This document shows, in pieces, positions 12,956 through 48,207 of a stretch of DNA of 64,000 nt. The stretch comes from Paramecium tetraurelia (lineage: Eukaryota). Both the position numbers and the translations under genes were made by a program. Positions within the stretch are counted from its first letter, which is position 1, and the number at the start of each line of letters is the position of its first letter. The stretch lies in NCBI GenBank assembly GCA_000165425.1, contig CT868152.1, forward strand, positions 434,001 to 498,000, given 5' to 3'. The notes under the pieces are model-generated. The model was not told the origin of the DNA and did no database searches. It saw only the letters and a list, made by a program, of their open reading frames with translations.

Positions 12956-14300
12956 ATGATAAGAAACAGTAGTTCATATAGCATTTAGGAGTCAACATAC
13001 CAAATTTAAAAACCTAGTTCGAATTTAGACATGAATTGTACCAATAAACACTTATAAAAGCTTCAATGTGTTTAAGTCAAGAATTCTAATAAAATAGATC
13101 ATTGAACAAATAATATGCCAATAGATTTTTAGGTGAATGGCATGAGGAGACCTATCGGGTAACGAGAAAATATGTTCCTTCCCAGACAAAAGGATTAAAT
13201 CTGTATACAACCTATTGCACCCCAGAAAATCCAATTGCAACAATAGTAATACTTCACGGGTATGGAGATCATTCTGGTAGATACTTTCACGTAAGATAAG
13301 CCATCATCATTAGGTTGCAGATGAATATGCGAAATATGGGTTTTAAGTCATTTTATATGACTAAAGGGGATTTGGTAATTCAGGTGGCATCAGAAGCCAT
13401 GCAGATATCAAATAAATGCATTAAGATCTAGAATGCATTTTAGAAACAATAGAAAGATCCTAATCAATATTTTTATAATGCTAATCTCTAGGTGCTGCGG
13501 TTGGATTAAGTTTCTGTATTGCAAATCCGTCAATTATCCTCTAAGGAGTCATAGTAGTAAATCCATATCTTTAATTTGCCGAAAAATATGGATTTTTTAA
13601 AAGGATGTTGCTTACTGTAATGAATAAGATAATTCCTGTATAATTTCTAAGTTATTTTAAGGGTCTCATGGTTAATTCCTATATAGATTATGGCCATTGC
13701 AGTAAAAACAATAACATAATCAAGAGTGTTGCTGAGGATAGTCTTGTACAACCCTTTATGAGTATTGGAATGGCTTATAACATATTGCAGTTGGATTCTT
13801 ATATATTACCCAATGCTAACTAGTAAAACATTAGAGTTATTTAAGATTCACTTAACCTTTATTGATTTTACATGGGAAAGAAGACAAAGTGGCCAGTCAT
13901 ATGAATTCAGTAGAATTATATCGTGAAGCAGGATCGAAGGACAAGACATTAAAATTATTTGATAAAGGATTCCACGAACTCCAGAATGATGTAGAATTTG
14001 AAAGAGTGAAAAACGTCATCCTCAATTGGTGTTAAAAATAAATTAACAAAGATAAGAGAATTAGTATTATATCAAAAACATATTTTAGGTTATTTAAGAG
14101 GGCTAAGTCATGGTTTAATTGCCAAGAACAATAATAGTTCGAAATTCTTAGTTCTTTCTTGGATTTTTATATATTTCATGTTAAAAAAGTAAAAATTTGA
14201 AGTATTTATTAGTAAAATGAAAAATCTTGGAAAAATTGCTAAATCTATTTGTATTTTAGCATTGATGATTGCATCTCTTATTGTTCGTATTAGATGGTGA
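12956..14300 (+). CDS. Alpha/beta hydrolase, monoacylglycerol lipase/lysophospholipase family
   Basis: LHGYGDHSGRY, YDQRGFGNSGG, nucleophile elbow CQSLG, LHGKEDKVA, FHELQND. The start assumes a 20-nt intron at 12969-12988. Confidence 0.88.
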
Positions 14301-15083
14301 TTATTGTTTAACAAAATTTTAATTTAATTTAATTTAAAAGTATATCATATAAATTGTTTTATAATTCCTTTTACACTCATGCATTTCACTAAAATCTAAA
14401 AGAATTCAATAGCAGGATTCTATTGCACACATGTACAATACTTGTAAAATTTTATAATGATTGAAATAAAATAAAAATGAGAATGCATTAAATAAAATTT
14501 CATTTAATAAGTTGCAATTCCTTTAAATTAATTATAATTACCAAAAGAGAGCATGTTAATAACAATTATTATATGTTTTTTTATTGAAGATTTTTATGCT
14601 CCAAAAACTAACAATAAAATTCTTAAGAATTATGTTTAGTTTAAATGATTAGAATCAATAGAGGAATTTATTATATATTTAAGATTCTATAAAACCTATT
14701 GAAGTGACGAAACATGTAAAAATATTCTACTCTCTTAATATATTTATAATTCTAATTCATTTTAATTTCAGAATTGCATATCTCTTAAATAGATGATAAA
14801 GTTTTTATTAATAATAGTAGTTTATCTCATTTCTATTGGTATAGATAATAAAGAAACTTTAATGCTAAAATATTATTTTGCTTTTCTACTCTTAGGAGTT
14901 CCATAATGCCTCCTATTTGAAATAAATTATATCGATAGTTATGAGTATCTGTAAAATCAAATTTATACCCCATAATTAGGCAATTTTTTATAAAATAATT
15001 AGCAACTCTTATGTTTAATATTCCTTTGGTTATTTATACTTTAATAATTATTAATTTCTATTAGAATCAGTTTATATCATAAA

Positions 15084-15923
15084 ATGTTATAGAATGATTG
15101 TTTAGAAAATGAAGATCCATAGAAGGAAGAAAAAGAACAATGTATGATTTGCAGAAATATGATTTTGAAAGCTGAATTAAAATAACATTAAATGAACTGC
15201 ATGAATACTTTGTCCTTAACTGATTAGGAATTCTTGGATGAATAATTAGCTCAATTAATTAGAGATTAGAATTTTTTGTCTACTATCTTTACAACTAAAA
15301 AACCCAACGATAGCCAAAACGAAGCTCAAATTGACCCTACTCAATAATAAAAAATAATAGGAGTGGAGATAGAATAAAAATAAGCATAAAATCAGAAATA
15401 AAATGACAACATAATATAAAATGTTTTGGAATCCAATAAAATATCTGAAAAACAATTTAATGTAATTCTTTTTTTATTTTAAGCGATAAAAGAATGCTGA
15501 TTAAAATGAATAATTTTCATAGAACATCCATTTAGATGATATTTTGATGATATAATCATAATAGTAATAAAAAGAATAATAATTAAAATAATAGTAGTAA
15601 TAATAGTAATAAAAATAATAGTAGTAATAATAATAGTAATAACACTAGTAATGTTAATAGTAATAATAGTAGTAATAATAATAGTAATAATAATTGTAAT
15701 AATAAAAATAATAGTAATAATAATAATAGTAGTAATAATTTTAATAATAAAAATAATAGTAATAATACTAATAATAATCATAATAATAATAGTAGTAATA
15801 ATAATAGTAATAATACTAATAATAGTAGTAATAATAAAAGTAATAATACTAGTAATAATAATAGTAATAATAGTAATAATAATATTAATAATAGTAATAA
15901 TAATAGTAGTAATATTAGTTGCA

Positions 15924-16001
<78 letters not shown>

Positions 16002-16974
16002 GTAGTAATAATAATAATTGTAACAATAATAAGAGGTAGGCGATTTATAAAAGAACACTTCATAGAATAAAAAATATGAAAAGCCATAAAATGATTTAAT
16101 GCTATAAGATGAAAGTAAATAATTATAAAATGATCAATTAAAATAAGTAAATTCATAACAATAAAAACCATAGAATAAACAATAAGAAAAAAAATTTGAG
16201 AAGAAGTAAAAACTCAACTTTGGAAACTAAACTATATAAATTGAGCCGAACTTTAATTAATTTGAAAATAAAGATAAAATAAACTATAAAACCGCAAACA
16301 AAGAGAAGATTGATTTGAGGAAAAAAATTGATCAAACAAATTTGTAATCTTATGAACCAATGCTCTTAGCGGCAGAATAAATTAATTCAAAGAAAGAGAA
16401 AACTAATACTGAAAAACAAAATAGTGTAGATGGTGGAAAATAACAATAAATACCAAATCCTATTCCTATTCCTTAAGTTAAACGGACACTCTAACTATAA
16501 AATTAATATATATCTATGAAATATGAAATATAGAGACCATAGACTGTAAATAAAAGCCCTATAAATTATGAATAATAATAAAGATTTGTATAACCACCTT
16601 TTCCACTTTATAGCATGCAATAATAATAGCAACCAAACTAGAAAAAGTTCGAATACATACCTGGTATGAGACTAACAAATTATTAAGTCAATTAGTTAAG
16701 TTAGGAAGATGTTTATGAGTATTTCACTAATTTAGCATTAGAGGAATAGGTTGGATACTAAAGTAAAATCTTCTAGTTAGAAAAAAAAAAAGTTTAAATT
16801 AATGAAGTTGGAAGTTGCCCAATCTGTATGGAGGATATCTAACCTTCGAAAGAACCAAATGATGTGTAATTGGATTGTAAACATTAGTTTCACTTTGATT
16901 GCATTAAAAGATGGCTTTAAACTTAGAAAAATTGCCCGATCTGCAAGAATCATGTTGATTTATGCTTCACATGA
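15084..16974 (+). CDS. RING-H2 E3 ligase with N-terminal C2HC (UBZ-like) finger and long polyQ region
   Basis: N-terminal CMIC..HQMNC; C-terminal CPICMEDI..LDCKHQFHFDCIKRWL..NCPICK; TGA 16972-16974. Confidence 0.85.
15553..16032 (+). repeat. Coding TAA/TAG trinucleotide tract (~160 codons, mostly Gln) with pure (TAA)25 at 15925-15999
   Basis: In frame with the RING gene; explains the spurious poly-Ile and poly-Leu ORFs in the track. Confidence 0.9.
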
Positions 16975-23257: not shown

Positions 23258-24913
23258 ATGAATATTAGATAATTAGACAACATCGTTTCGTGGCTTCTTT
23301 CTAAATTCAAGTCTTCGCCCTATAGATGGAACGAATAATAATTGAATTCCTTTTGTGAATCCGTTGGATTGTAATGGGCTGTGTCAATAATAACCGTATA
23401 TGACTTCATCAATATGTAGGTATAAGCTGCCCCAAAGTAGAGATCTTACAATAACTAAGAGGCACACACTCATGCTAACAAACTATAAATCCCTCTGTTA
23501 GATGCCTGTACAAGATAGTATGAAGAAATACTCGAATTGTGCAATGCTTTGGGCATTTATAAATTGATTAGTCATTCTATGGATATCAACCTTTATTATC
23601 AGATTTAGAAATTAAAGATATGGTCCCTTATAGTCTTGAAATATCAGCATTATAGAGAAATGTTTAAGAAGCATTATGGATCCAAATTCTTTTCTACTTC
23701 TAAATGTAAGAGTTGTACTGCTGAAATCAGTTGTGCATGTCAGATATTAAACAATTTGCTATGTGAAATTGAGATCTACATTAAAAGTATATATGAGCTG
23801 CCCAGTACTCAAAATCAAAACAGAAGATGTTCGATGTATATAAGTTCAGACATAATCAATTTATTGTTGAAATCTATTTCGCATCTGCCTTCATATGATT
23901 AATAACCTCTATTTTGGGACATGGATGATATTAAAGTTCTATTGCATGTAATTAAATTCCAAGATTATTACTAATTGCTATTCTAAAACTAAATAGACGG
24001 ATTCATTCTACTAATTTTGGTCAATCCCCCTTTTAAGGGAGACAATTTATTTTTAAAATGTTTATTGATGAGTTAACAAAATTAAACACAGAAATCATAA
24101 AACTTACTCTATTAAAATCGATAAAGTATGGTCAGAAATACAATGTAGACAGCAAGCAAGTATCATTAAATAAATTAATTTCTTCATTTATTACATTATT
24201 TATTACAGATATTGAGTTTAGCTGCTTACAAAAACTAGGAATCATACACTGAATACAAACAATTGGGATAAAGAAAAGTAAGTCAAATCAGATGGATATC
24301 CTTATACTATTTTACAAAAGACTCTCAAGTCGGTTAAGCCAATAGAAAATCAACACTTACTGATTAATTTATGAGATCATCAAAATCATATGGAAATGTT
24401 GAAGGCCAAATGAAAAATAGGAATAAAACTGAGACTTTGGATTAATTTGAAATTAAGATTATGGTGACCGATCAAAGTTTAGAATAGATTAAAAAATAGT
24501 TTAGTCAGCCTAATGTTACACACTCTGCCTAAACATCACCATATGTTTAGAGAGATACAAATTGGATTAAGTTTAAAAATTAAACTGTTAATTAATTTAA
24601 TGTTGAAGATAGTGTTAATAATAGAAGTAGTTCATTTTTGATGTATATTGTACTTATAATTATTTAAGACCAGATACTGATGGCAATACAATTGAACAAG
24701 AAAGGGATAGACTGAATACAGAAACCCATGTTTAAATTGAAGAAGACATATTATCAGGGAGTAACGTTAATCAGTCATAAGAAGAACAGTCATAATAATT
24801 ATCTAATTAGGAAGAAGAACAGCAAGAACTTAGTGATTAAATGCAATAATCAGTTGCATTCATGGCATAATCAATATTAATTTAATAATCTTAATTATTA
24901 TAATAACAATAAC

Positions 24914-25005
<92 letters not shown>

Positions 25006-26073
25006 GATATGGGTGAATCTGTTATATTAGGTTAAGCTACAGTGATGTCATAATCTACAATGTTGCAGTAGTCAGTAATGATTTAATAACCAACAACGAT
25101 GTAATAGTCAGTTATGATGTAATAATCTGTTATAATGTAATAATCAACAATGATGCAATAATCAACGATGCTAGAAAAGTCAATCTAAATACAATAAATA
25201 ATTGAATAATAAGATAATTAACGAGTAGAGTACTTATTATAAAATAATTTTTAGATTTAATAATAAAGATCAATCAAAGAAAAGATATTGGAAAGAATAG
25301 AAAAATTAACTCTTTAGCCATTGTTTGATTTATTTTAGCTTTAATCATAAACCCACTTGAAATTGAAATGTGACGAGCAATAAAAAGTAGATAATTTAGT
25401 TAAAATTAGTTAAAAGTTGTAAATATCTAAGGAGCAAGTTTTGGCAGGAATGAAGATTGCACGTTTGCCTTTACAGATCATTCTAAAATTAGCAGCAAAC
25501 ATTGCTAAATATATTATAAAGATAGTATTATTTTTAAAATAAATTGACAGAGACATTTTATTTGGTTGATGTTGGATCAAAAGGTGGTACTTTTATAAAA
25601 ATAAACCATAATTTTGTAATTGAAAAAGATATGTCAGTGTATATAGGAAATCGATTTGCATTTAAAATAATTGACATTAACACAGAGACAGGATTCTTGG
25701 AAGTCAGATATGAGCATGAAGGAACAGCAAAGCACAAATAAATATAATTAAAAAGAGGTGATAAGTTTTTAATAGGGAGAGAGAAATCTAAAAATAATTT
25801 TACATTTATGCATTCTTAGTAAGTTTTATCATAAAGAATATTAGATGCAACAGATTAATGAGTGCAAAACATATGGAAATCTATTATGATTATAATTTTA
25901 AAGCGGGATCAGTTAAGTTAATGATAAACGATTTGGAAAGCAAAAATGGAACTTGGTTGAGATTGAGTGAAAAGCAAGTTGTTAGTGCACCTTTTCATTT
26001 ATAGAAAGGAGTAAAATTTAATCTATCATTTGAATTGATGTTCGATGTCTTTGAATTGGTGTGTGATGTATGA
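23258..26073 (+). CDS. SAM-like / polyQ / tandem FHA-domain protein
   Basis: SAM-like WDMDDIKVLLHVIKFQDYYQLLFQNQIDG; FHA1 FGRNEDC..ISSKHC..DVGSKGGTF; FHA2 IGRE..MSAKH..DLESKNGTW. Confidence 0.8.
24901..25005 (+). repeat. Coding polyQ tract (35 Gln codons, mostly TAA)
   Basis: TAA TAA CAA TAA CAA (TAA)n in frame within the FHA gene. Confidence 0.9.
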
Positions 26074-26108: not shown

Positions 26109-26979
26109 ATGAGTTAGAAATTAGAAATTATTGGAAGAAAATTGGTGGTAGTGCTCGCAGCCAGTGTTTATTCTATCCATTATTGGATTAATTTTAATCT
26201 ATGGATAACTGAAGAGTTAAGCATACTATTGTATGTACATATGATTACTTTGAACATCGTTTTCTTAATGCTTTTCTGGTGTTTTATAGTCATGCTTATA
26301 ATCGATCCAGGAAGACCAAAAATGTAAATTGGCAGTATAAGATAGTGCAGATGAATATATTTAATCCCCGTTCTCAAAGAAAGTATACTGCGATAAGTGT
26401 AAATGCTAAAAGCCAGAGCGTTGTCATGTATAATTTCAAAATAAATTTAAGCATTGTTCAATTTGTGATCGCTGTGTGTTATAAATGGATCATCATTGTC
26501 CATGGATAAATACATGTGTTGGCTATTAGAGCAGAAAATAATTCATATTGCTCTTATTTTATGCATTGTTATTTAATTTCATTACAGTAGTAAGTACAAC
26601 TAAAACATATTTGCTTTCATTTAGATTTTCAATTTTTAATATGATTTATGCATTGGCTTGCATAGGTAACTACGTTTTGGTATTTTTGCTTTTTAACTTT
26701 CTTAAATATCACATTGAGTTATTATAAAAGAATCAGACAACTCTAGAAGATATAATTAGTAAAAATAATTAAACTAATTTTAATTTCTATGATATTGATC
26801 CTCATACAAATGTTACCTAGATTTTTGGATAAAATAAATCCTTATGGTTATTTCCAATTTATTCTGGTGTTGGATGTAATGATGGACATACATTCCCTAA
26901 AATTGATTATAAGGGTATGTAAGCTTCTTCTCCGCAAGTTGTTTCAGTGTAAGAATTCAATTTATCATAGCTTTTATGA
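26109..26979 (+). CDS. DHHC palmitoyltransferase
   Basis: DPG motif, [43 protein letters not shown]. Confidence 0.95.
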
Positions 26980-33548: not shown

Positions 33549-34553
33549 GAATAGAAAGCCGGGCTGCACCTTGCTTTCTTGTATTTTCTTAATTCATGCT
33601 TTCTCGTTTATTCTCCTTCTGGAGAATTTACTTCTGAACAGCATAATTATTTTTTATCAATTTTATAATTTTATTGACCTAAATATTAGAAATGGTCTTT
33701 AGGCATCTTAGGATTTAAGCTTGAAGAAATTCTATTTTATTAATCAACTCCATTGTTATATATCCTCAAGTCCCAAATCAATTGATTATTCAAATTTCAA
33801 GTTATGCTAACCCAAAGTTAATAAGATTGTTCTTCAATATCCATTAGTAATTATCATTAAAATATCAAAATAAAATGTATCTTTCTTAATTTGATATTAA
33901 CCAATTCAATTTTAGAATACTAATAGATTATAGAGTTGAATAATTTTCTAAATAATGAAACCATTTTTTATTATCATAATCACTGTAGTATTTTTTCGTT
34001 ATTATTAGAATATCTACTTAAATTCATTATTATTAAATGTTGAATTACATCACAAAATATCTTTATTATATTAATTTATTAGATAAAATAAATGAAATTT
34101 ATATGTTATTTTTAAGGAAGGTTAGAAATATACATTCACGATTACAACAGTATTTTCATAAGACTAGGCTTGATAATCATTATTCATAAAGCTCTAGTTT
34201 TGATGAAATACCTTAAAACCTGTTTCTAAAGTCAAAACATCTGTATTATTGTTATACTATTGAAAAATATTTTCTAAATTTAAAGCAAAATAAAACTGAC
34301 CCCCACTTTTTCATTTAAATGATGAACAAACTATTGAAAACAATCCCTCTAGTAAAGAAGCTAAAAGTTATTATCAAAATAAGTGATGTAATGATGTGAA
34401 AATGACTTCAACCATGAGAAGGGTTAATGTATATAAAAGTAAGGAATAATTAGTTTGCGTTGATAATTATTGCTAACTTAAGAAAATTGAATACAATTTT
34501 TGGATTAATCTACAATAAAATATAGATGATATTGGGTATTAGATGTATCCAAA

Positions 34554-37500
34554 TCAATATGTTTGTTAATATAATAATTTCAATTAATTCGTCAAATTTA
34601 TCATTGATTTTATTTCTTAGAAATTGTAATTATACATCTTTTGATCATCTAGATTTTTCGGAATTTTCAAAATCTTTTCTATTTCGTCCAATTTATCTAG
34701 AGTATAAGCTAAGAAACCATCCATATTTATTTATACTTTTGTTAATTTAATAACTTGAATCTTCTGGATTTTTCTAAATTGCTGAATCATAACATTCTAA
34801 TGCCTCTTCAAATCGTGTCATTTAATCTAAAGTATTGCCTAAGAAATCATCCATATTATATGATACCTTTGCTGTTATAATAACGTGAATCTTCTGGATT
34901 TTTCTAAATTGCTGAATCATAACATTCTAAAGCCTCTTCAAATCTTTTCATTTTATTTAATGTTAAACCTAATAAATCACCATCAATTATACCTTTGCGA
35001 TAATAAAATTCAGAAATCTCTGGATTTTTCTAAATTGCTAAATCATAATTTTCCAAAGCTTCATCGGTAAAGTTCAAACTTTCTAGAGGAATCGCTAAGA
35101 AATCATCAAAATGTATTCATACCTTTGTTAATATAATATTATGAATTTTCTGGATTTATCTAAATTGCTGTATTATAATTTTGTATAGCTTCTTCAAAAT
35201 GCTTCATTTTATTTAATGTCGTAGCTGAAAGATCATCTATATTACATTATACCTTTGCCATCATAATAATCAGAATTTTCAGGGTTTTTCGAAATAGCTA
35301 ATTCATATAATTTCAAAGCCTCTTCAAATCTGCGCAATTCAACTAGAGTAAAAGCTAAGAAATCGTCCATTTATAATTATACCTTTGCGATAATAATGCT
35401 CAGAAATTTCTGGATTTTTCCTAATTGCGGAATCAAAATATTCTAATGCTTCTTTGAATTTTTTCATTTCATATAGAGCACTAGCTAAGAAATTATCCAA
35501 ATTATCATACCTTTATTAATATCATATACTAAATTTTATTGATCGTTCTGAATTGCTAAATCTTAATTTTGCAAAGCTTCTATATAACGATTCATTTTCC
35601 CTAATGTCAAAGCTAAAAGATCATCTATATTACATTATACCTTTGCCATTATAATAATCAGAATTTTCAGGGTTTTTCGAAATAGCTAAATCATAAAATT
35701 TCAAAGCTTCTTCAAATCTGCTCAATTTAACTAGAGTATTAGCTAAGAAATAATACATATTTAATGATACCTTTGTTGAAATAATACATTGAATTTTATG
35801 GGTTTTTCTAAATTGCTGAATCATAACTTTGCAAAGCTTCTTCAAAACGATTCAGTTTATATAATGTAGTAGCTATGTAATCATCGATTTTTAATTCTAC
35901 CTTTATGATTATAATAGTCGGTATTTTCTGGATTTATCTAAATTGCTAACATATAAATTTTCAAAGCCTCTTCAAATCTATTCATTTTATGTAATGTAAA
36001 AGCTAAGAATTCATCCAAAATTGATTATACCTTTGTGATAATAATAGTCAGAACATTTTGGATCTACCTAAATTGCTAAATCATAATTTTCCAAAGCTTC
36101 TGAAAACTTTCTCATTCTATCTAGTGTATAAGCTAACAAATCATTCATATTGTATTATACCTTTGCGATAATAATAATCAGAATTTTCTGGATATTTCTA
36201 AATTGCCGAATCGTAATTTACCAAAGCTTCTTCATATCTCTAGACTTCATTTAAAAATAGTAGCTAAGAACTTTCAAAATGTAAATTGTACCTTTGTCAA
36301 ATATAATGCCTTGAATCTTCTGGGTTTAGTTAAATTGCGAGATCAAAATTTACCAAAGCATCTTCAAATTTGGATTAATCTAAATTTGTTTTCAAATATA
36401 TTGAAAAATAATGAAATCGCTAGGTAATCATCTATATTTAATTTTACCTTTGCCAACCATAAAAGTCAGACACCTCTGGGTCCTTCTGAATAGCTAAATC
36501 ATAATTTTCTAACGCCTCTTCAAATCTTTTCATTTTACTTAGAGTATTTGCTAAAATTCATTCATTAATAATACCTTTGATATAATAATACCTGGAAATT
36601 TCTTTGTTTTTATAAATTGCCAAATTTGAATTTTCCAAAGATTCTTCAAATAGATGCATTTTATTTAATGTAATTGCTAAGTAATTATCAATATTGAATT
36701 CTACCTTTGCGATTATAAGAGTCAGATATTTCTGGGTTTTTTGAAATAGCCAAATTATAATATTTCAAGGCTTCCTCAAATCTTTTCAGTATATCTAGAG
36801 TATTTCCTAATAAATCTTCCATAATATAATATACCTTTGTTATTAATAAGGATAGGATTATTTGGATCTTTCTAAATTGCTAAATTATAATATTTCAACG
36901 CCTGATCAAATTTTTTCATTTCGTTTAAAGTATTTGCTAAGAAATTATCCATATTAAATGATACCTCTGCAATTATAATAACATGATTCCTGTGGATTTT
37001 TGTAAATTGCTGAATCATAACATTCTAAAGCCTCTTCAAATCTTTTCATTTTATTTAATGTTAAACCTAATAAATCACCATCAATTATACCTTTGCGATA
37101 ATAAAATTCAGAAATCTCTGGATTTATCTCAATTGCTAAATCATAATATTCCAAAGCTTCATTTAATCTGTTCATCTTCTCTAGAGGAATAGCTAGGAAA
37201 TCATCAAAAAATGGAATCATACCTTTTTTAATATAAAAATAAGCATTTTTTGGATTTTTCGAAACGACTGATTTAATTGGAGCGTACTAATCGAAATGAT
37301 ATATATTAAATCGAATTTTGGTGTTGCAGTACACATTTAATCGAATTTAATTTTTCTTTGCTTATGAATCTTTGGCTAATTTTCTCTAAACTTTATTTAT
37401 TGCTACTTTTAATTCTTTGTTGTACTTTTATTGGCTTTACATAGTTTTTATAGCTATTTGTATTTTAGATTTATTTTTTACAATTCCAAAGCAAGCCATT

Positions 37501-38168
37501 ATTCTTTTTGGATTTTATGAAACAATTAATCTTGAATTATTGTTAAATGCAATAAAATCATAAAAATTATCGCAGATAGATGCTTAGAATTACTTAGATT
37601 AATTAGATAATAAGGTAGATCCGTTTAAGTGACATTTCAAAAGATTTTCTTATTACTACTAAGTATTTCTAATACTAATATTTTCTAAAGAGCATTCTTT
37701 ACAGTCAATCTTCATTTCGATTAATAAATGAAGAGAATTTGATCCACTCTAAATGAATCTCATATCTAAGGCAGTTAGATGAACTAAAAATCTGAGAAAT
37801 TCTATAATTTTCTTATCAAATGATATTTTTATGATGAGATCCTTTTTAATTTCTTCATAATTATCTGTTGAGTAATTTTATTAATTAAATTCATGATCCC
37901 TAATTTATTTGAGAACATCAGTTATTCTCTTAATACTAATTTCTGAATTGAAAGTCTATTCTTTATTAAGCAGCAATAAATTATCGACCTTTTATCTTTC
38001 TATTTACAAAAGGATTTGATTTTGATCTTATGAAAGAAATTCTAGGCAGTCTTAAATTTTCTCTTTTTTTAATACGTAAATGAGGATAGGAAAGAATACT
38101 TTATCAAGATCTTTAGATAAAATCAACACCTTATACAACTCTTCAACTCTCTCCTTTTAGCAATACAT
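34554..38168 (-). CDS. Multi-exon TPR-array gene (about 20 TPRs, three frameshifted central exons) with in-frame upstream WD40/pentapeptide-family-like domain; possibly a pseudogene or two genes
   Basis: Repeat consensus A.TL.KM.RFEEAL..YD.AIQKNPE.S.YY..K. Twenty GT-AG phase-1 introns between 34709 and 37222. ATGs at 37499 and 38168 are in the same TGA-free frame. The 3' end is uncertain. Confidence 0.8.
34709..37222 (-). repeat. Tandem array of ~130-bp units (102-nt exon plus 24-30-nt intron)
   Basis: Donor positions 34736, 34866, 34992, 35122, 35252, 35382, 35510, 35640, 35770, 35900, 36030, 36160, 36291, 36447, 36574, 36704, 36834, 36964, 37090, 37222. Confidence 0.95.
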
Positions 38169-43341: not shown

Positions 43342-43468
43342 TTAAACTATTAATTACGAACAAAAATAATTTAATTGTTATGAAAGAATATGGATTATTA
43401 TAAATGATAGAATTTTAGAATTATTTATTCTAAACAAAAAGATCTTATGAATTATTTTTATTTTTCAT

Positions 43469-44531
43469 ATGGCCTAACCCCATTAACACTGTCTATATGA
43501 TGGTCATTAGAATAGTGCCATATTGGGAGTTTGTCTCAATGCATCGTGTTAGAATAAAAAACCCTATTGTCATCATTGCATTTCTTAATATCATTCATCA
43601 CACGTCAATGATCTTAAAAATTTTGACCAACTTAAAATTTGGTCTAATTAGTTGAATTAATCTTACTAAGAAATCTAGAGTACATCTTAGGAAATCTAAA
43701 AACATTTATTGACCTTGGCAGACTAAATGAAAGGCTTGTATGTAGACCCCAACATCAACTTCTCTGAATGTAATTTAACAGACTTAGAACACCATGTCTT
43801 GAAATTGATTAACATCCAATAATTATCGAATTCTCTTTTACTTTCAAATCTTTAAGAAATCAACTCGAAGATAAATTTTGCGAAAGCTGGAGAAAGTCAA
43901 ATAAAAGGCAGCGCATTATAACTATCTCTAATTCAAACTAATTCTTAATCAATTATAGATAATACCTCTGCAAATTCTATTATTATATAACCTGCGAATC
44001 ATACTAATTTTCGTTTCTCTGAGTAGCTAACCTTCAAAGGTATCGCAATTCAAGAGAACGGAAAGAAAGCCGTATGCACTGGATTAGAATGGGGTTTTGC
44101 ATTGTGTGAACCTGCCATTCCTAAATGTGGGATTTCAAGATTTGTTTTTTAAGTATCTCACAGCAATGTATGTAACATATATGTTGGCGTATGCCATAAA
44201 GATAAAATTATTCAATCTAATTATTCTCCTATTTCATTTTAATAATTAGGTCATGGCGCTTACCTTATTTTTAGTACTGGTTTAATACTATCCCATTTGT
44301 AAGCTGAAATTAACTATTAATTTAAAGGATTCTCTTATTCAAATAATGATATAATAATTATGGAAGTTGACATGAATAAATAACAAATTCTATTCACTCA
44401 TCAATAAAAGTAATAATAAATTGTAAATGAATTTCAAATATTCTTAGGCTATGAAGTTAGATGTTACATAAGACCTATATCCATATGCAGAATTATGTGT
44501 TAGTTCGTCCATTTAAATCATTTAGGTTTGA
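43469..44531 (+). CDS. B-box-like zinc finger / coiled coil / SPRY-like protein
   Basis: CLYDGH..GVCLNASC..YCHHCISQYHSSH; C-terminal FALCEPAIPK..IYVGVCH..GHGAYLI..DIIIMEVDM..DLYP. Confidence 0.7.
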
Positions 44532-44931
44532 TTAATAATTTATAAAAATATCATGCAACCAATCATTTTTATACATAAAAAAAATAAAAATCTTAGAAAA
44601 AGAAGTTTATTCTAAGTAAAGATATAATAAAATATATTTTCATAATCTCCAATAAATTAAGAATTATTTCTATAATTTATTAAGATTTATCATGTGTTCT
44701 ATAAGTATTTATAATTTTCATAAATCTTACTAAACAAAGAAAAATAAAGTGATATGATATAGAAATTATAATTGTGATCACTTTCTTCGAAATCATTTTA
44801 TTATTGTCAGGGATTGATTCAAAATAGTATAATATTTTTCTTCTAATTTATATAGGTTAATTAGTTTTGAGTTTCTTATTTTGTGATGAAAATTAATTAG
44901 ATAAATAATTTGCATCAATAGTTGTGAACTG

Positions 44932-46227: not shown

Positions 46228-47191
46228 ATGAATCATAGAAAGAGTTTATCACCGTTTAGTGAAAAAGTGAGAGTTATTTAATTTACTTGTTTAAGATTGG
46301 AGTTCCTTTACCCATTAGTTAGTGAACCCCTAAAAGTGATAGTGTGTGAAAAACATACCTTCATTGCTAAACCTTAAGATCAAAGATGTGCAATTGTTAA
46401 CTAAGTACAAGATAACAAATTATCAGACATAAGCTATTGAAGTTTTTAATCATAAAATCAAAATTGAAATCTAAAACTTAGGGACCTCGCAATTAGACTT
46501 GAATACTTACTAGGCCTTTTCATTGGAAAAAGTTCCAATTTATGATAGAAAAAATCAGAAACAATTGATTGGATTCCTATGTTTTAAGATAGATGAAACA
46601 TCGAAAAAGAGCACTCCAAATACTAGCATTTAAAACTCAAGAGAACAATCATTAAGTAATTCAATAAATTAAAATAGATTTTGGTTCAAATTTATTTACC
46701 ATTGCATTTAGTGATTAATCACAACAATAAAATTCTAAGTAACAAAATTCAATTTAAAAGTATTCTAATGAAGAAATAAAGAGAAATATTGACTAAATCG
46801 CTCAAATTTATGAAGAAATGAGCAGAGAATAAAATTAATTACTATAATAGGACCTAAAATTAAAGAAACTGGACAATGAAATTAAAGATTTGAATTAGTA
46901 GTTAAAATCCTTGCATGATTAAGAGCATCACTTAGATTTATAATTTAAAAAATTATAAACTCAATCTCCATAATTATAAATGTTGATTAATCAAAAAATA
47001 CAATAACAATACTCAATCCTAACTTTTAAGAAGAAATAAGAAAATCCAATTTAAAAATAATCGCCCTCATAAATAATTAGAACTGAGCAAACTAGTCAAA
47101 GATAGAAGAAAACTAATGTTCTTCCGTAATAAGTAACAATTAGTTTAATTGAATAAGAAAAGTTTATGAAAAAATAAAATAAAGAGCCTGA
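46228..47191 (+). CDS. Hypothetical coiled-coil protein
   Basis: Coding-like frame with heptads (IDQIAQIYEEMSREQNQLLQQDLKLKKL); boundaries approximate. Confidence 0.5.
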
Positions 47192-47357
47192 AATTCCAGT
47201 TAATATGTCTATACCCTTTTCTTTTAATGAATATTTTAGTTTATTCAAAAATTGATTCTACTTTAAATCATTAATGTATTATTTCTACTATTAAATATGA
47301 ATAATAAAGGCTTAACACATTGGAATATTAAAATATTATACTACTATTAATATAGCC

Positions 47358-47966
47358 TCATGCACCAATAGCCAATTTGGATCTAGCAGCCTATTTTCTT
47401 GATTAACGAGCAACAACTTTATTATTTGCTTCTTTCTTAACATTTTCATCTTTCTCAGCAGCCCAGATTTCAACGTGAGCATTAGATGATAAGAATGCTA
47501 TTAAAATAAATCATAAAGATTACGATTAATTCTTCCGTGTGCTCTGTATGTTCTACGTCTACCCTTTTAAGCTCTATTGACTTAAACATGATTGATAATC
47601 AATTTATCATTAGTCAAGTTCTTGACTTAAGCATTAGCAGCCAAATTTTACAAGAGTGATAAAACAATTCTCACACTCTTTTCAGGCCATCTACCTGTAA
47701 TTAATTTATTATGAATCTATACCTTATGATCTGCCGAATTCTTTGGCTTAACCTGTTCTGCCTACACCTCCATTAAATCTGGTGAATGGAACACATCTAT
47801 TATGTTATAAGACATCTTGTAAATATTTGAGTGCTTAAGCAAGGGTTTATCCTTTAAGTGCTTTAGCTACTTCATATGTATTCTTAAAGTGAGTTCTTAA
47901 ATCACTTGCCCTAGCCTTAGCGGACTTTTTAGCAACTGCTGGCTCTCTAGCATATTATTTGCCCAT
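47358..47966 (-). CDS. RPL17: 60S ribosomal protein L17 (uL22)
   Basis: [53 protein letters not shown]; two short introns. Confidence 0.97.
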
Positions 47967-48207
47967 TGAATCCTTTTTTAATTAATTAAATTTGTTTTTT
48001 CAAATTCATTATTAAATGGAAATATGATAAATAATTTTATTGTTAAAATAATGATAGGATGGACTTTTTACACAGAGATTTAACCAATATATTATCAATC
48101 AAATGATAATAAATTGGATAAACCATTTCATGAATTTCAAAAGAGAGAGATTAATACTTGTTATTAATTTTTCTAATGAATAGTTATATAACAATAGTTC
48201 ATATTAG

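What the first reader, a model, noticed from the sequence alone, without database searches (positions are those of the whole stretch)
34709..37222. One-TPR-per-exon cassette array: candidate exon-shuffled recognition system
Seen: 19 internal exons, 16 of exactly 102 nt (34 codons), all flanked by phase-1 introns, mostly 28 nt with a shared ..GATGATTTCTTAG-like 3' end. The duplicated unit is therefore exon plus intron (130 bp). Symmetric exons can be added, lost, skipped or swapped without frameshift. Established parallels: fixed-length-exon LRR arrays in Tetrahymena and exon-shuffled repeat receptors in the brown alga Ectocarpus. Inference: a diversifying ligand-recognition gene family in Paramecium. 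I cannot confirm whether it has already been described.
Basis: partly seen in the sequence, partly recalled or inferred. Interest (0 to 1): 0.85.

Follow-up and report, generated by a model that had tools for sequence, protein, structure and literature searches.

The report
Paramecium TPR gene of exon-intron cassettes
A Paramecium gene encodes its protein-binding TPR repeats one per tiny exon, in a tandem array that grew by copying a 130-base exon-plus-intron unit, but this copy is broken in the middle and looks almost unexpressed, so it is a neat but fairly ordinary case of repeat-gene turnover.

Summary
On the minus strand of a Paramecium tetraurelia macronuclear scaffold there are 20 phase-1 mini-introns and 19 internal exons. 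Sixteen exons are exactly 102 nt, and each encodes one 34-residue TPR period. Exons and introns were duplicated together as a 130-bp unit.

Four findings are new:
- **Annotation.** The gene starts at 38168 and its 5' part is already annotated as a 590-aa "tetratricopeptide repeat" protein.
- **Unique head.** Its first 184 residues are a domain otherwise found on Paramecium WD40 proteins, one of which has a NACHT domain upstream. Only this 1 of 128 relatives carries TPRs.
- **Broken centre.** Four indels and in-frame TGAs interrupt cassettes 6-8. Both flanks stay stop-free: 0 TGA in 485 and 425 codons.
- **Weak RNA.** The one RNA run laid showed almost no locus-specific reads, no splice joints and no cover of the 3' tail.

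My best reading is a young chimeric, partly decayed member of lineage-specific repeat families, built by unequal recombination of symmetric cassettes.

The "diversifying recognition family" idea is not supported here. It is also not excluded, because no genome, strain or germline comparison was possible. The closest parallels are the Tetrahymena 90-bp LRR exons and the Ectocarpus 126-nt TPR exons.

The parts
37617..38168 (-). Start codon (38168) and head domain, residues 1-184. It is homologous to the region between the N-terminal module and the pentapeptide/WD40 repeats of a Paramecium protein family.
   Evidence: tblastn of 7 WD40 relatives gives 40-62% identity over 38168-37605/37617. phmmer finds 128 representatives; the best non-self hit is P0122 at E 1.7e-58 and 60% identity. 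Pfam finds no family.
37270..37616 (-). Orphan linker, about residues 185-299, with no detectable relative.
   Evidence: A search with residues 224-315 found only the locus's own protein: 1 hit among 38 candidates. There is no tblastn match to WD40 relatives and no cassette-profile match.
37223..37269 (-). Partial cassette 0. This is the last 47 nt of the first exon, matching cassette-profile positions 56 onwards. It marks the junction where the TPR array begins in mid-unit.
   Evidence: nhmmer hit 37269-37193, model positions 56-130, E 6.3e-8. It also coincides with the left edge of the 84% duplicated block at 37264.
34709..37222 (-). Cassette array of 20 phase-1 mini-introns and 19 internal exons, 16 of them 102 nt. 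Each exon encodes 34 residues, one TPR period.
   Evidence: Pfam TPR_1 gives E 9.5e-15 and 4.9e-12 on two-cassette read-throughs.
36161..36550 (-). Damaged centre, cassettes 6-8. Exon 6 has +1 nt near its 3' end. Exon 7 has +25 nt in its first third and +1 nt near its 3' end. Exon 8 has +1 nt near its 5' end. The TPR reading frame is lost here.
   Evidence: No combination of GTA..YAG introns of 19-45 nt restores a TPR frame.
36297..36299 (-). In-frame TGA in exon 7, where the annotated 590-aa protein (P0002) ends.
36792..37264 (-). 5' copy of an internal segmental duplication, running from partial cassette 0 to the start of exon 4.
   Evidence: blastn self-comparison gives 84% over 477 nt against 35164-34694. 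Intron 2 and intron 18 are identical at 24 of 24 positions.
34694..35164 (-). 3' copy of the same duplication, running from the second half of exon 16 to the start of the last exon.
34554..34708 (-). Last exon: a 51-residue non-repeat tail plus the TGA stop.
   Evidence: Translation. No protein in the database carries this tail. RNA depth is zero here.

Best explanation
**What it is.** This is a macronuclear gene of Paramecium tetraurelia on the minus strand (38168 to 34554). Its TPR solenoid is written as tandem 130-bp cassettes. Each cassette is a 102-nt exon (one 34-residue TPR period, starting at TPR position 8) plus a phase-1 mini-intron of about 28 nt.

**How the array grew (inferred).** The array grew and was patched by DNA-level unequal recombination or gene conversion between cassettes. 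The intron travelled along as a passenger. Every exon is a multiple of three and every intron has the same phase, so any in-register gain or loss keeps the reading frame. After splicing, the product would be an ordinary TPR protein-binding scaffold.

**What is special about this copy.** It is a one-off chimera with three parts:
- a 184-residue head borrowed from a Paramecium WD40 family, at least one member of which has a NACHT domain upstream of the head;
- an orphan linker;
- a join made in mid-cassette to the TPR array.

It is also partly decayed. Four indels and in-frame TGAs in cassettes 6-8 cut the frame. At most the annotated 590-aa 5' product (head plus about 6 TPRs) can be made. The 11 downstream cassettes are a still-open relic.

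**Shown versus inferred.** The anatomy, the homology of the units, the lesions, the uniqueness of the chimera and the very low RNA signal are shown. The recombination mechanism, actual splicing at this locus and the birth-and-death status are inferred.
For: **Anatomy**
- 20 of 20 introns are phase 1 and 16 of 19 exons are 102 nt.
- Removing the introns gives a gapless TPR register. Pfam TPR_1 scores 54.2 and 45.6 bits against a cut-off of 27.8.

**Evidence that the introns are real and precise**
- The spliced 3' half has 0 TGA in 425 codons, against 18 and 28 in the other two frames.
- The 5' half has 0 TGA in 485 codons, against 10 and 18.

**Co-duplication of exon and intron**
- Inner intron identity is 66%, against 35% for random sequence.
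- Exon identity correlates with downstream-intron identity, r=0.45.

**Mosaic recombination**
- Mean exon identity is 70%. Cassettes 2/18 and 12/15 reach 92% and cassettes 1/17 reach 85%.
- An 84% block of 477 nt links the two ends of the array.

**Lesions**
-. The annotated protein ends at the exon 7 TGA.

**Chimera**
- 128 head-domain relatives were found. None but this locus matched the locus-derived TPR profile.
- 47 of the 74 relatives of at least 250 aa carry WD motifs.
- Of the 26 others, Pfam finds 0 with TPR, 16 with WD40-type domains, 3 with pentapeptide only and 7 with nothing.
- Relative P0128 has a Pfam NACHT domain at 36.9 bits, above the 26.7 cut-off.

**RNA**
- 66 reads were laid, and 40 of them were only 95-99% alike.
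- Depth was at most 6, there were no joints, and depth was zero on 34400-34720.
Against: - Both halves are free of stops over 910 codons. By composition, P is about 1e-4 for the 3' half alone. That is unexpected for an old pseudogene.
- The four indels cluster in about 0.2-0.4 kb. This pattern also fits two separately maintained genes, or a functional gene with a decayed insert.
- Only one RNA run with raw reads was laid, and only about a third of it was read. The condition is unknown, so conditional expression is not excluded.
- No DNA run was laid, so the four indels were not independently re-verified. 16 runs hold at least half of the stretch's sampled words, but where the missing words lie is unknown.
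- The TPR check on the 47 WD-motif relatives used only a profile built from this locus. It was not done with Pfam.
Confidence: 0.6

Rival explanations
1. Two genes made by fission of one array. Gene A would be the head plus six TPRs with a short out-of-frame tail. Gene B would start at the Met in exon 9 and carry about 11 TPRs plus the 51-residue tail. The decayed cassettes 7-8 would serve as the spacer and promoter region.
For: - Both flanks are TGA-free (0 of 485 and 0 of 425 codons), while four indels cluster between the 3' end of exon 6 and the 5' end of exon 8.
- The public annotation already treats the 5' part as a gene that ends in exon 7.
- Exon 9 has an in-frame Met.
Against: - No database protein carries the tail: 122 candidates, none at E<=0.1.
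- No P. tetraurelia TPR protein matching the 3' half appeared among the 120 best hits.
- RNA depth is zero over the tail and 3' flank in an oligo-dT library.
- There is no in-frame ATG between the TGA at 36299 and exon 9.
Confidence: 0.2
2. The locus would be a working member of a diversifying ligand-recognition family. Cassettes would be swapped, added, lost or skipped to vary binding specificity, as proposed for the Ectocarpus NB-ARC-TPR and Tetrahymena LRR genes.
For: - The cassettes are symmetric and show mosaic identity.
- pN/pS is 1.02 in the three youngest pairs, against 0.66 over all 120 pairs.
- The most variable residues are TPR positions 2, 9, 12, 6, 23, 15 and 5. Several of these are the ligand-facing helix A positions, as I recall them from the TPR literature.
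- The head comes from a family with a NACHT member, and NACHT proteins are the usual chassis of innate-immune receptors.
- Inactivated cassettes inside an array were also seen in Ectocarpus.
Against: - This gene has no NTPase or other signalling domain.
- The architecture is a singleton.
- The frame is broken.
- There is almost no RNA and no joints, and hence no sign of skipping.
- There are no cassettes on the opposite strand or elsewhere in 64 kb.
- The pN/pS value rests on about 31 differences and equals the neutral expectation.
- The variable positions are those of any TPR family.
Confidence: 0.12
3. The gene is intact and functional over its full length, and the central damage is only apparent. 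The cause would be either assembly error in a repeat or unusual processing. With introns 7 and 8 retained, exons 6-8 total 390 nt and stay in frame apart from one TGA.
For: - 103+28+128+28+103 = 390 nt, a multiple of three, with a single in-frame TGA at 36299.
- The flanks are stop-free.
Against: - A length divisible by three has a one-in-three chance of arising by accident.
- The retained-intron reading gives non-TPR junk and still hits a TGA. The only stop-free paths need an ad hoc 34-nt intron.
- Introns 7 and 8 keep canonical GTA..TAG ends.
- 16 runs from several studies hold most of the stretch's exact 31-letter words.
Confidence: 0.07

Closest known systems
Tetrahymena group II/III LRR genes with arrays of exactly 90-bp exons (Xiong et al. 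2019, PLoS Biol, PMC6564038; passages read)
   Same: - It is a ciliate.
- Each solenoid repeat unit is encoded by a fixed-length exon whose length is a multiple of three.
- A single intron phase runs throughout.
- The arrays have many introns, and exon plus intron expand together.
- Young arrays are still recognisable at nucleotide level.
   Different: - The repeat here is TPR, not LRR, and the exons are 102 nt, not 90 bp.
- The phase is 1, not 2, and the introns are about 28 nt rather than about 56 bp or longer.
- Here only one locus was seen, not a demonstrated genome-wide class.
- That paper reports that P. tetraurelia LRR genes lack a fixed-length exon peak. In the passages I saw it does not examine Paramecium TPR exons.
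Ectocarpus NB-ARC-TPR loci with one TPR per exon (Zambounis et al. 2012, Mol Biol Evol, PMC3341825; passages read)
   Same: - TPR repeats are encoded one per exon.
- The exons are symmetric.
- Inactivated repeat exons carrying frameshifts or stops lie inside the array.
- There is high gene birth and death.
   Different: - Ectocarpus exons are 126 nt (a TPR plus a linker) with long introns, and they sit on an NB-ARC NTPase.
- Here the exons are 102 nt with no linker, the introns are 24-30 nt, and the gene has no NTPase.
- In Ectocarpus the dead exons sit inside introns and are skipped. Here they lie in line and break the frame.
Paramecium head-pentapeptide-WD40 family, including NACHT-containing P0128 (P. 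pentaurelia, UniRef name 'NACHT domain-containing protein')
   Same: Residues 1-184 are homologous: 60% identity to P0122 and 47-49% to P0128 and P0032.
   Different: This gene has no NACHT, no recognisable pentapeptide repeats and no WD40. Instead it has an orphan linker and a TPR array. None of the other 127 relatives shows TPRs.
Other Paramecium TPR proteins, such as P0003 (P. tetraurelia, 856 aa) and P0052 (P. octaurelia, 439 aa)
   Same: They have the same 34-residue unit, '..TL.KM.RFEEAL..YD.AIQKNPE.S.YY..K', with K|A junctions. P0003 carries a 9-residue insert, GSIFLHLQI, exactly at one K|A junction. That is what a retained 27-nt phase-1 intron would give; this is my inference from the protein alone.
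   Different: They have different N-terminal regions and no shared tail. Their DNA, and hence their exon structure, could not be examined here.

Membership tests
TPR repeat proteins (Pfam PF00515 TPR_1 and clan) | A 34-residue helix-turn-helix period with conserved small and hydrophobic positions (8, 20, 27 and Pro32), present in tandem. | tested here: met
   TPR_1 gives E 9.5e-15 (54.2 bits) and 4.9e-12 (45.6 bits), against a cut-off of 27.8, on two-cassette stretches. Across the 16 intact cassettes, A/G8 is present in 16 of 16, A20 in 15, A27 in 16 and P32 in 14. Single exons alone score 25.0 and 22.7 bits, below the cut-off.
Fixed-length symmetric-exon repeat arrays (Tetrahymena LRR type) | Runs of at least 3 exons of exactly one length, a multiple of three, with one intron phase. 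| tested here: met
   There are runs of 5 and 11 consecutive 102-nt exons, and 20 of 20 introns are phase 1.
Fixed-length symmetric-exon repeat arrays (Tetrahymena LRR type) | A genome-wide class, visible as a peak in the exon-length histogram and shared by many genes. | not testable with these tools
   No genome is held for this window. One metagenome pattern scan returned 2 chance loci without TPRs.
Exon-shuffled NB-ARC-TPR / STAND candidate receptors (Ectocarpus type) | A STAND NTPase (NB-ARC or NACHT) in the same protein. | tested here: not met
   Pfam finds nothing in residues 1-315 (best is DUF7838 at E 0.14). The 450 nt upstream of the ATG are not coding-like, and the next upstream ORFs are unrelated.
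Exon-shuffled NB-ARC-TPR / STAND candidate receptors (Ectocarpus type) | Signs of shuffling: inactivated or inverted repeat exons in and around the array. | tested here: inconclusive
   Cassettes 7-8 are inactivated in line. No cassette lies on the opposite strand or elsewhere in 64 kb. Mosaic identity is present.
Exon-shuffled NB-ARC-TPR / STAND candidate receptors (Ectocarpus type) | Positive selection on ligand-facing repeat positions. | tested here: inconclusive
   pN/pS is 1.02 for the three youngest pairs (5.8 synonymous and 25.2 non-synonymous differences) and 0.66 over all 120 pairs. This cannot be told from relaxed constraint.
Paramecium head-pentapeptide-WD40 family (one member, P0128, with NACHT) | The head domain. 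| tested here: met
   phmmer gives E 1.7e-58 to P0122. 128 representatives score E<=1e-3 and 88 score E<=1e-10.
Paramecium head-pentapeptide-WD40 family (one member, P0128, with NACHT) | Pentapeptide repeats followed by a WD40 propeller. | tested here: not met
   There is no Pentapeptide or WD40 Pfam hit. tblastn homology stops at 37617/37605.
Expressed, spliced gene (precondition of the functional claim) | RNA reads specific to the locus, with joints at the 20 introns. | tested here: inconclusive
   One raw RNA run gave 66 reads, no joints and zero depth on the tail. Many reads are from paralogues, shown by loose ends at 35062 and 36004. All reads lie in one orientation. Splicing is supported only indirectly, by the stop-free spliced frames.

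The most novel reading that the evidence does not exclude
Paramecium may have a genome-wide class of 102-nt phase-1 TPR exon cassettes. Together with WD40 arrays, these would act as interchangeable sensor modules on NACHT-type and kinase-type chassis. That would make a ciliate NLR-like repertoire diversified by cassette recombination. This locus would then be a caught-in-the-act swap of a WD40 sensor for a TPR sensor.
Probability: 0.1. Interest if true: 0.8.

Novelty: new member of a known kind. Interest (0 to 1): 0.38.

Why it matters
If the 102-nt cassette is general in Paramecium TPR genes, it would be a third, independent case of solenoid repeats built from fixed-length symmetric exons. 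The other two are the Tetrahymena LRR genes and the Ectocarpus LRR/TPR genes.

It would also be a clean example of introns multiplying by tandem duplication of an exon-intron unit, with 20 homologous introns in one gene, in a genome with some of the shortest known introns.

The head shared with WD40 proteins (one of them NACHT-bearing) hints that Paramecium swaps repeat sensors between chassis.

As it stands, this single locus is broken, nearly silent and a singleton. Its main value is as a pointer to a cheap genome-wide test.

Tried and rejected
1. **Rescue of the frame by alternative splicing.** I enumerated all GTA..YAG introns of 19-45 nt from exon 5 to exon 9. This gave 12 candidates and 3 stop-free paths. 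All three retain canonical introns, need an ad hoc 34-nt intron and yield non-TPR sequence. A looser search gave only contrived paths.

2. **Retained germline element (IES) as the source of the exon 7 insertion.** A TA-bounded 28-nt stretch exists, by eye. Removing it leaves 100 nt rather than 102, and the ends fit the IES end consensus poorly as I recall it. This was not pursued.

3. **A NACHT domain upstream of this gene.** None was found. The N-terminal 310 residues of relative P0115 also gave no Pfam hit. The NACHT link rests on P0128 alone.

4. **Cassettes in other organisms.** One metagenome pattern scan returned 2 loci with no TPR motif, so these were chance matches.

5. **Contig runs X17, X18 and X20.** They yielded only 35-59-nt pieces on conserved cassette parts and nothing on the unique flanks. 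They show that paralogous cassettes exist in those runs but say nothing about expression or splicing of this locus.

6. **Search with the 51-residue tail.** No hit.

7. **Earlier findings of this scan.** Four look-ups found nothing relevant.

8. **Literature.** The searches found no paper describing TPR exon cassettes in Paramecium. Subscription journals and bioRxiv supplements were not visible.
Full report
**1. What is there**

The window is macronuclear DNA of Paramecium tetraurelia. Its translation is identical to a deposited 590-aa protein, P0002, named [quoted passage not shown] by NCBI and "Tetratricopeptide repeat" by UniRef. Residues 1-402 of that protein map to 38168-36963 on the minus strand. 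GC content is 19-35%, and reading frames need the ciliate code.

The finding's coordinates are exactly the first base of intron 1 (37222) and the last base of intron 20 (34709).
- There are 20 introns. All begin GTA; 19 end TAG and one ends CAG.
- Intron lengths are 28 nt (15 of 20), 24 nt (3), 26 nt (1) and 30 nt (1).
- There are 19 internal exons. Sixteen are 102 nt; exons 6, 7 and 8 are 103, 128 and 103 nt.
- Every intron splits a G|CN or G|GN codon, so all are phase 1.
- 17 of 20 intron 3' ends lie within two mismatches of GATGATTTCTTAG.

**2. It is not chance, and the unit is exon plus intron**

- Tandem Repeats Finder reports periods of 130, 260 and 390 over 34692-37264.
- A nucleotide profile of the cassettes recovers the 19 cassettes at E 3.7e-20 to 6e-32.
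- It also recovers a partial cassette 0 at the end of the first exon (37269-37193, model positions 56-130).
- Nothing else in 64 kb on either strand reaches E<1.
- The inner 22 nt of the 28-nt introns are 66% identical pairwise, against 35% for composition-matched random sequence. That is close to the 70% mean identity of the exons.
- Exon-pair identity correlates with identity of the downstream intron (r=0.45, 66 pairs). It does not correlate with the upstream intron (r=-0.02).

**3. The protein repeat**

Each exon encodes 34 residues of the form A/G-x-T-L-x-K-M-x-R-F-E-E-A-L-x-x-Y-D-x-A-I-Q-K-N-P-E-x-S-x-Y-Y-x-x-K.
- Pfam TPR_1 scores 54.2 and 45.6 bits on two-cassette stretches, against a cut-off of 27.8.
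- Exon residue 1 aligns to profile position 8. The intron therefore sits in the Gly/Ala-8 codon inside helix A, and an exon is a shifted TPR period, not a structural TPR unit.
- The most variable residues are TPR positions 2, 9, 12, 6, 23, 15 and 5. This is the usual picture for TPR families, as I recall it.

**4. Indirect evidence that the introns are spliced precisely**

- With introns removed, exons 9-19 plus the tail have 0 TGA in 425 codons. The other two frames have 18 and 28.
- The first exon plus exons 1-5 have 0 TGA in 485 codons, against 10 and 18.
- Sixteen of the 20 introns have lengths that are not multiples of three.
- Three of the four multiple-of-three introns (1, 2 and 18) are stop-free. 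The deposited protein retains introns 1 and 2 as 10- and 8-residue inserts.

**5. The array is a mosaic**

- Most cassette pairs are about 70% identical. Cassettes 2/18 and 12/15 reach 92%, 1/17 reach 85% and 18/19 reach 84%.
- Introns 2 and 18 are identical.
- A 477-nt block at the 5' end (37264-36792) matches the 3' end (35164-34694) at 84%. Its left edge coincides with the point where the array begins in mid-cassette.

This is the signature of DNA-level unequal recombination or conversion between 130-bp units. It is not the signature of recombination confined to introns.

**6. The centre is broken**

Aligned to the majority cassette, the lesions are:
- exon 6: +1 nt near its 3' end;
- exon 7: +25 nt in its first third and +1 nt near its 3' end;
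- exon 8: +1 nt near its 5' end.

With canonical splicing the frame hits a TGA nine codons into exon 7. No set of GTA..YAG introns of 19-45 nt restores a TPR frame.

If introns 7 and 8 are kept, the 390 nt stay in frame but still contain a TGA at 36299. That is where the deposited protein ends.

**7. The head**

The gene starts at 38168, and Pfam finds nothing in residues 1-315.

Residues 1-184 are homologous to Paramecium proteins that continue into pentapeptide and WD40 repeats.
- Seven such proteins from five aurelia species (tetraurelia, octaurelia, primaurelia, sonneborni and, via the next search, pentaurelia) match at 40-62% identity.
- An exhaustive search finds 128 representatives.
- Only this locus matches a TPR profile, 1 of 128.
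- 47 of the 74 proteins of at least 250 aa carry WD motifs.
- Pfam on the other 26 finds 16 with WD40-type domains, 3 with pentapeptide only, 7 with nothing and 0 with TPR.

In long relatives the head is internal. P0128 (P. pentaurelia, 1922 aa) has a Pfam NACHT domain upstream of it at 36.9 bits, above the 26.7 cut-off. P0220 has a kinase domain.

Upstream of our ATG there is no coding-like sequence and no NACHT. Residues 185 to about 299 have no relative at all.

The locus is therefore a unique chimera: head, orphan linker, then a TPR array joined in mid-cassette.

**8. RNA**

Of the runs found, one oligo-dT RNA run with raw reads (X24) and three contig runs were laid.
- X24 gave 66 reads. 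26 were at least 99% alike and 40 were 95-99% alike.
- Depth was at most 6 and there were no joints.
- Depth was zero over the tail and 3' flank (34400-34720).
- All reads had the first mate on the + strand. That fits minus-strand transcripts in the usual stranded protocol.
- Loose ends at 35062 (19 reads) and 36004 (4 reads) show that many reads come from paralogues. The 36004 reads read, by my translation, as a K|A exon-exon junction of a paralogue.

Paralogues are therefore transcribed. This locus is at best barely transcribed in that sample.

**9. Selection**

pN/pS is 1.02 for the three youngest cassette pairs, based on 5.8 synonymous and 25.2 non-synonymous differences. It is 0.66 over all 120 pairs. 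This fits relaxed constraint as well as diversification.

**10. Reading**

The best-supported account is a TPR array built and remodelled by recombination of symmetric exon-intron cassettes, in a young chimeric gene that is now partly decayed (confidence 0.6).

- The stop-free flanks and the clustered lesions keep a two-gene fission model alive (0.2).
- Against it, this gene lacks any NTPase, is a singleton architecture, is broken and is almost silent. None of the decisive tests could be run, because no genome is held.

**11. Comparison with what is known**

- Tetrahymena has arrays of exactly 90-bp LRR exons with phase-2 introns that expanded clonally. The same paper says P. tetraurelia LRR genes lack such a peak (passages of PMC6564038).
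- Ectocarpus NB-ARC-TPR genes have 126-nt TPR exons and inactivated exons inside the arrays (passages of PMC3341825).
- A 2026 survey of ciliate introns notes the narrow intron-length range of Paramecium and the scarcity of multiple-of-three introns. It does not mention TPR (passages of PMC13685798).
- Searches for Paramecium with TPR, exon shuffling, NACHT or "102 bp" found no description of this architecture.

I file it as a new member of a known kind.

**12. Surroundings**

The neighbouring ORFs are unrelated. One is a DHHC palmitoyltransferase, one is ribosomal L22/L17e, and several have no family.

Noticed in passing
window 36382 and 34512 (minus strand): The 14-mer TAGATTAATCCAAA occurs twice: inside the 25-nt insertion of exon 7, and about 40 nt past the gene's stop codon. 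It could be chance in AT-rich DNA, or a trace of how the insertion arose.
   Followed up: no
window 37193-37222, 37067-37090, 34969-34992: Introns 1, 2 and 18 have lengths that are multiples of three and contain no stop. If retained they would add 8-10 residues without triggering a stop. The deposited protein P0002 retains introns 1 and 2. Introns 2 and 18 are identical.
   Followed up: partly
protein P0003 (P. tetraurelia, another scaffold): A 9-residue insert, GSIFLHLQI, sits exactly at a K|A repeat junction. That is what a retained 27-nt phase-1 intron would give. It hints that a paralogue has an intron at the same codon (inference from the protein only).
   Followed up: no
proteins P0128, P0220, P0157 (relatives of the head domain): The head-pentapeptide-WD40 module of Paramecium sits behind different N-terminal modules. 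P0128 has NACHT (Pfam). P0220 has a protein kinase domain (Pfam). P0157 is named 'Protein kinase domain-containing protein' by UniRef. Many other members start directly at the head.
   Followed up: partly
window 43451-44752 (+): A 433-aa open frame has a Cys/His-rich N-terminus that by eye resembles the N-terminus of TPR protein P0003. Pfam gives only a weak, sub-threshold match to an unrelated family.
   Followed up: no
window 26254-26979 (+) and 47096-48094 (-): These are ordinary neighbours: a DHHC palmitoyltransferase (E 4.9e-22) and a ribosomal protein L22/L17e fragment (E 2.1e-12).
   Followed up: yes
window 15552-16032 and 24867-25170: Long ATA/ATAATA-type simple repeats lie in a stretch where GC falls to 0.19 (14001-16000).
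   Followed up: no
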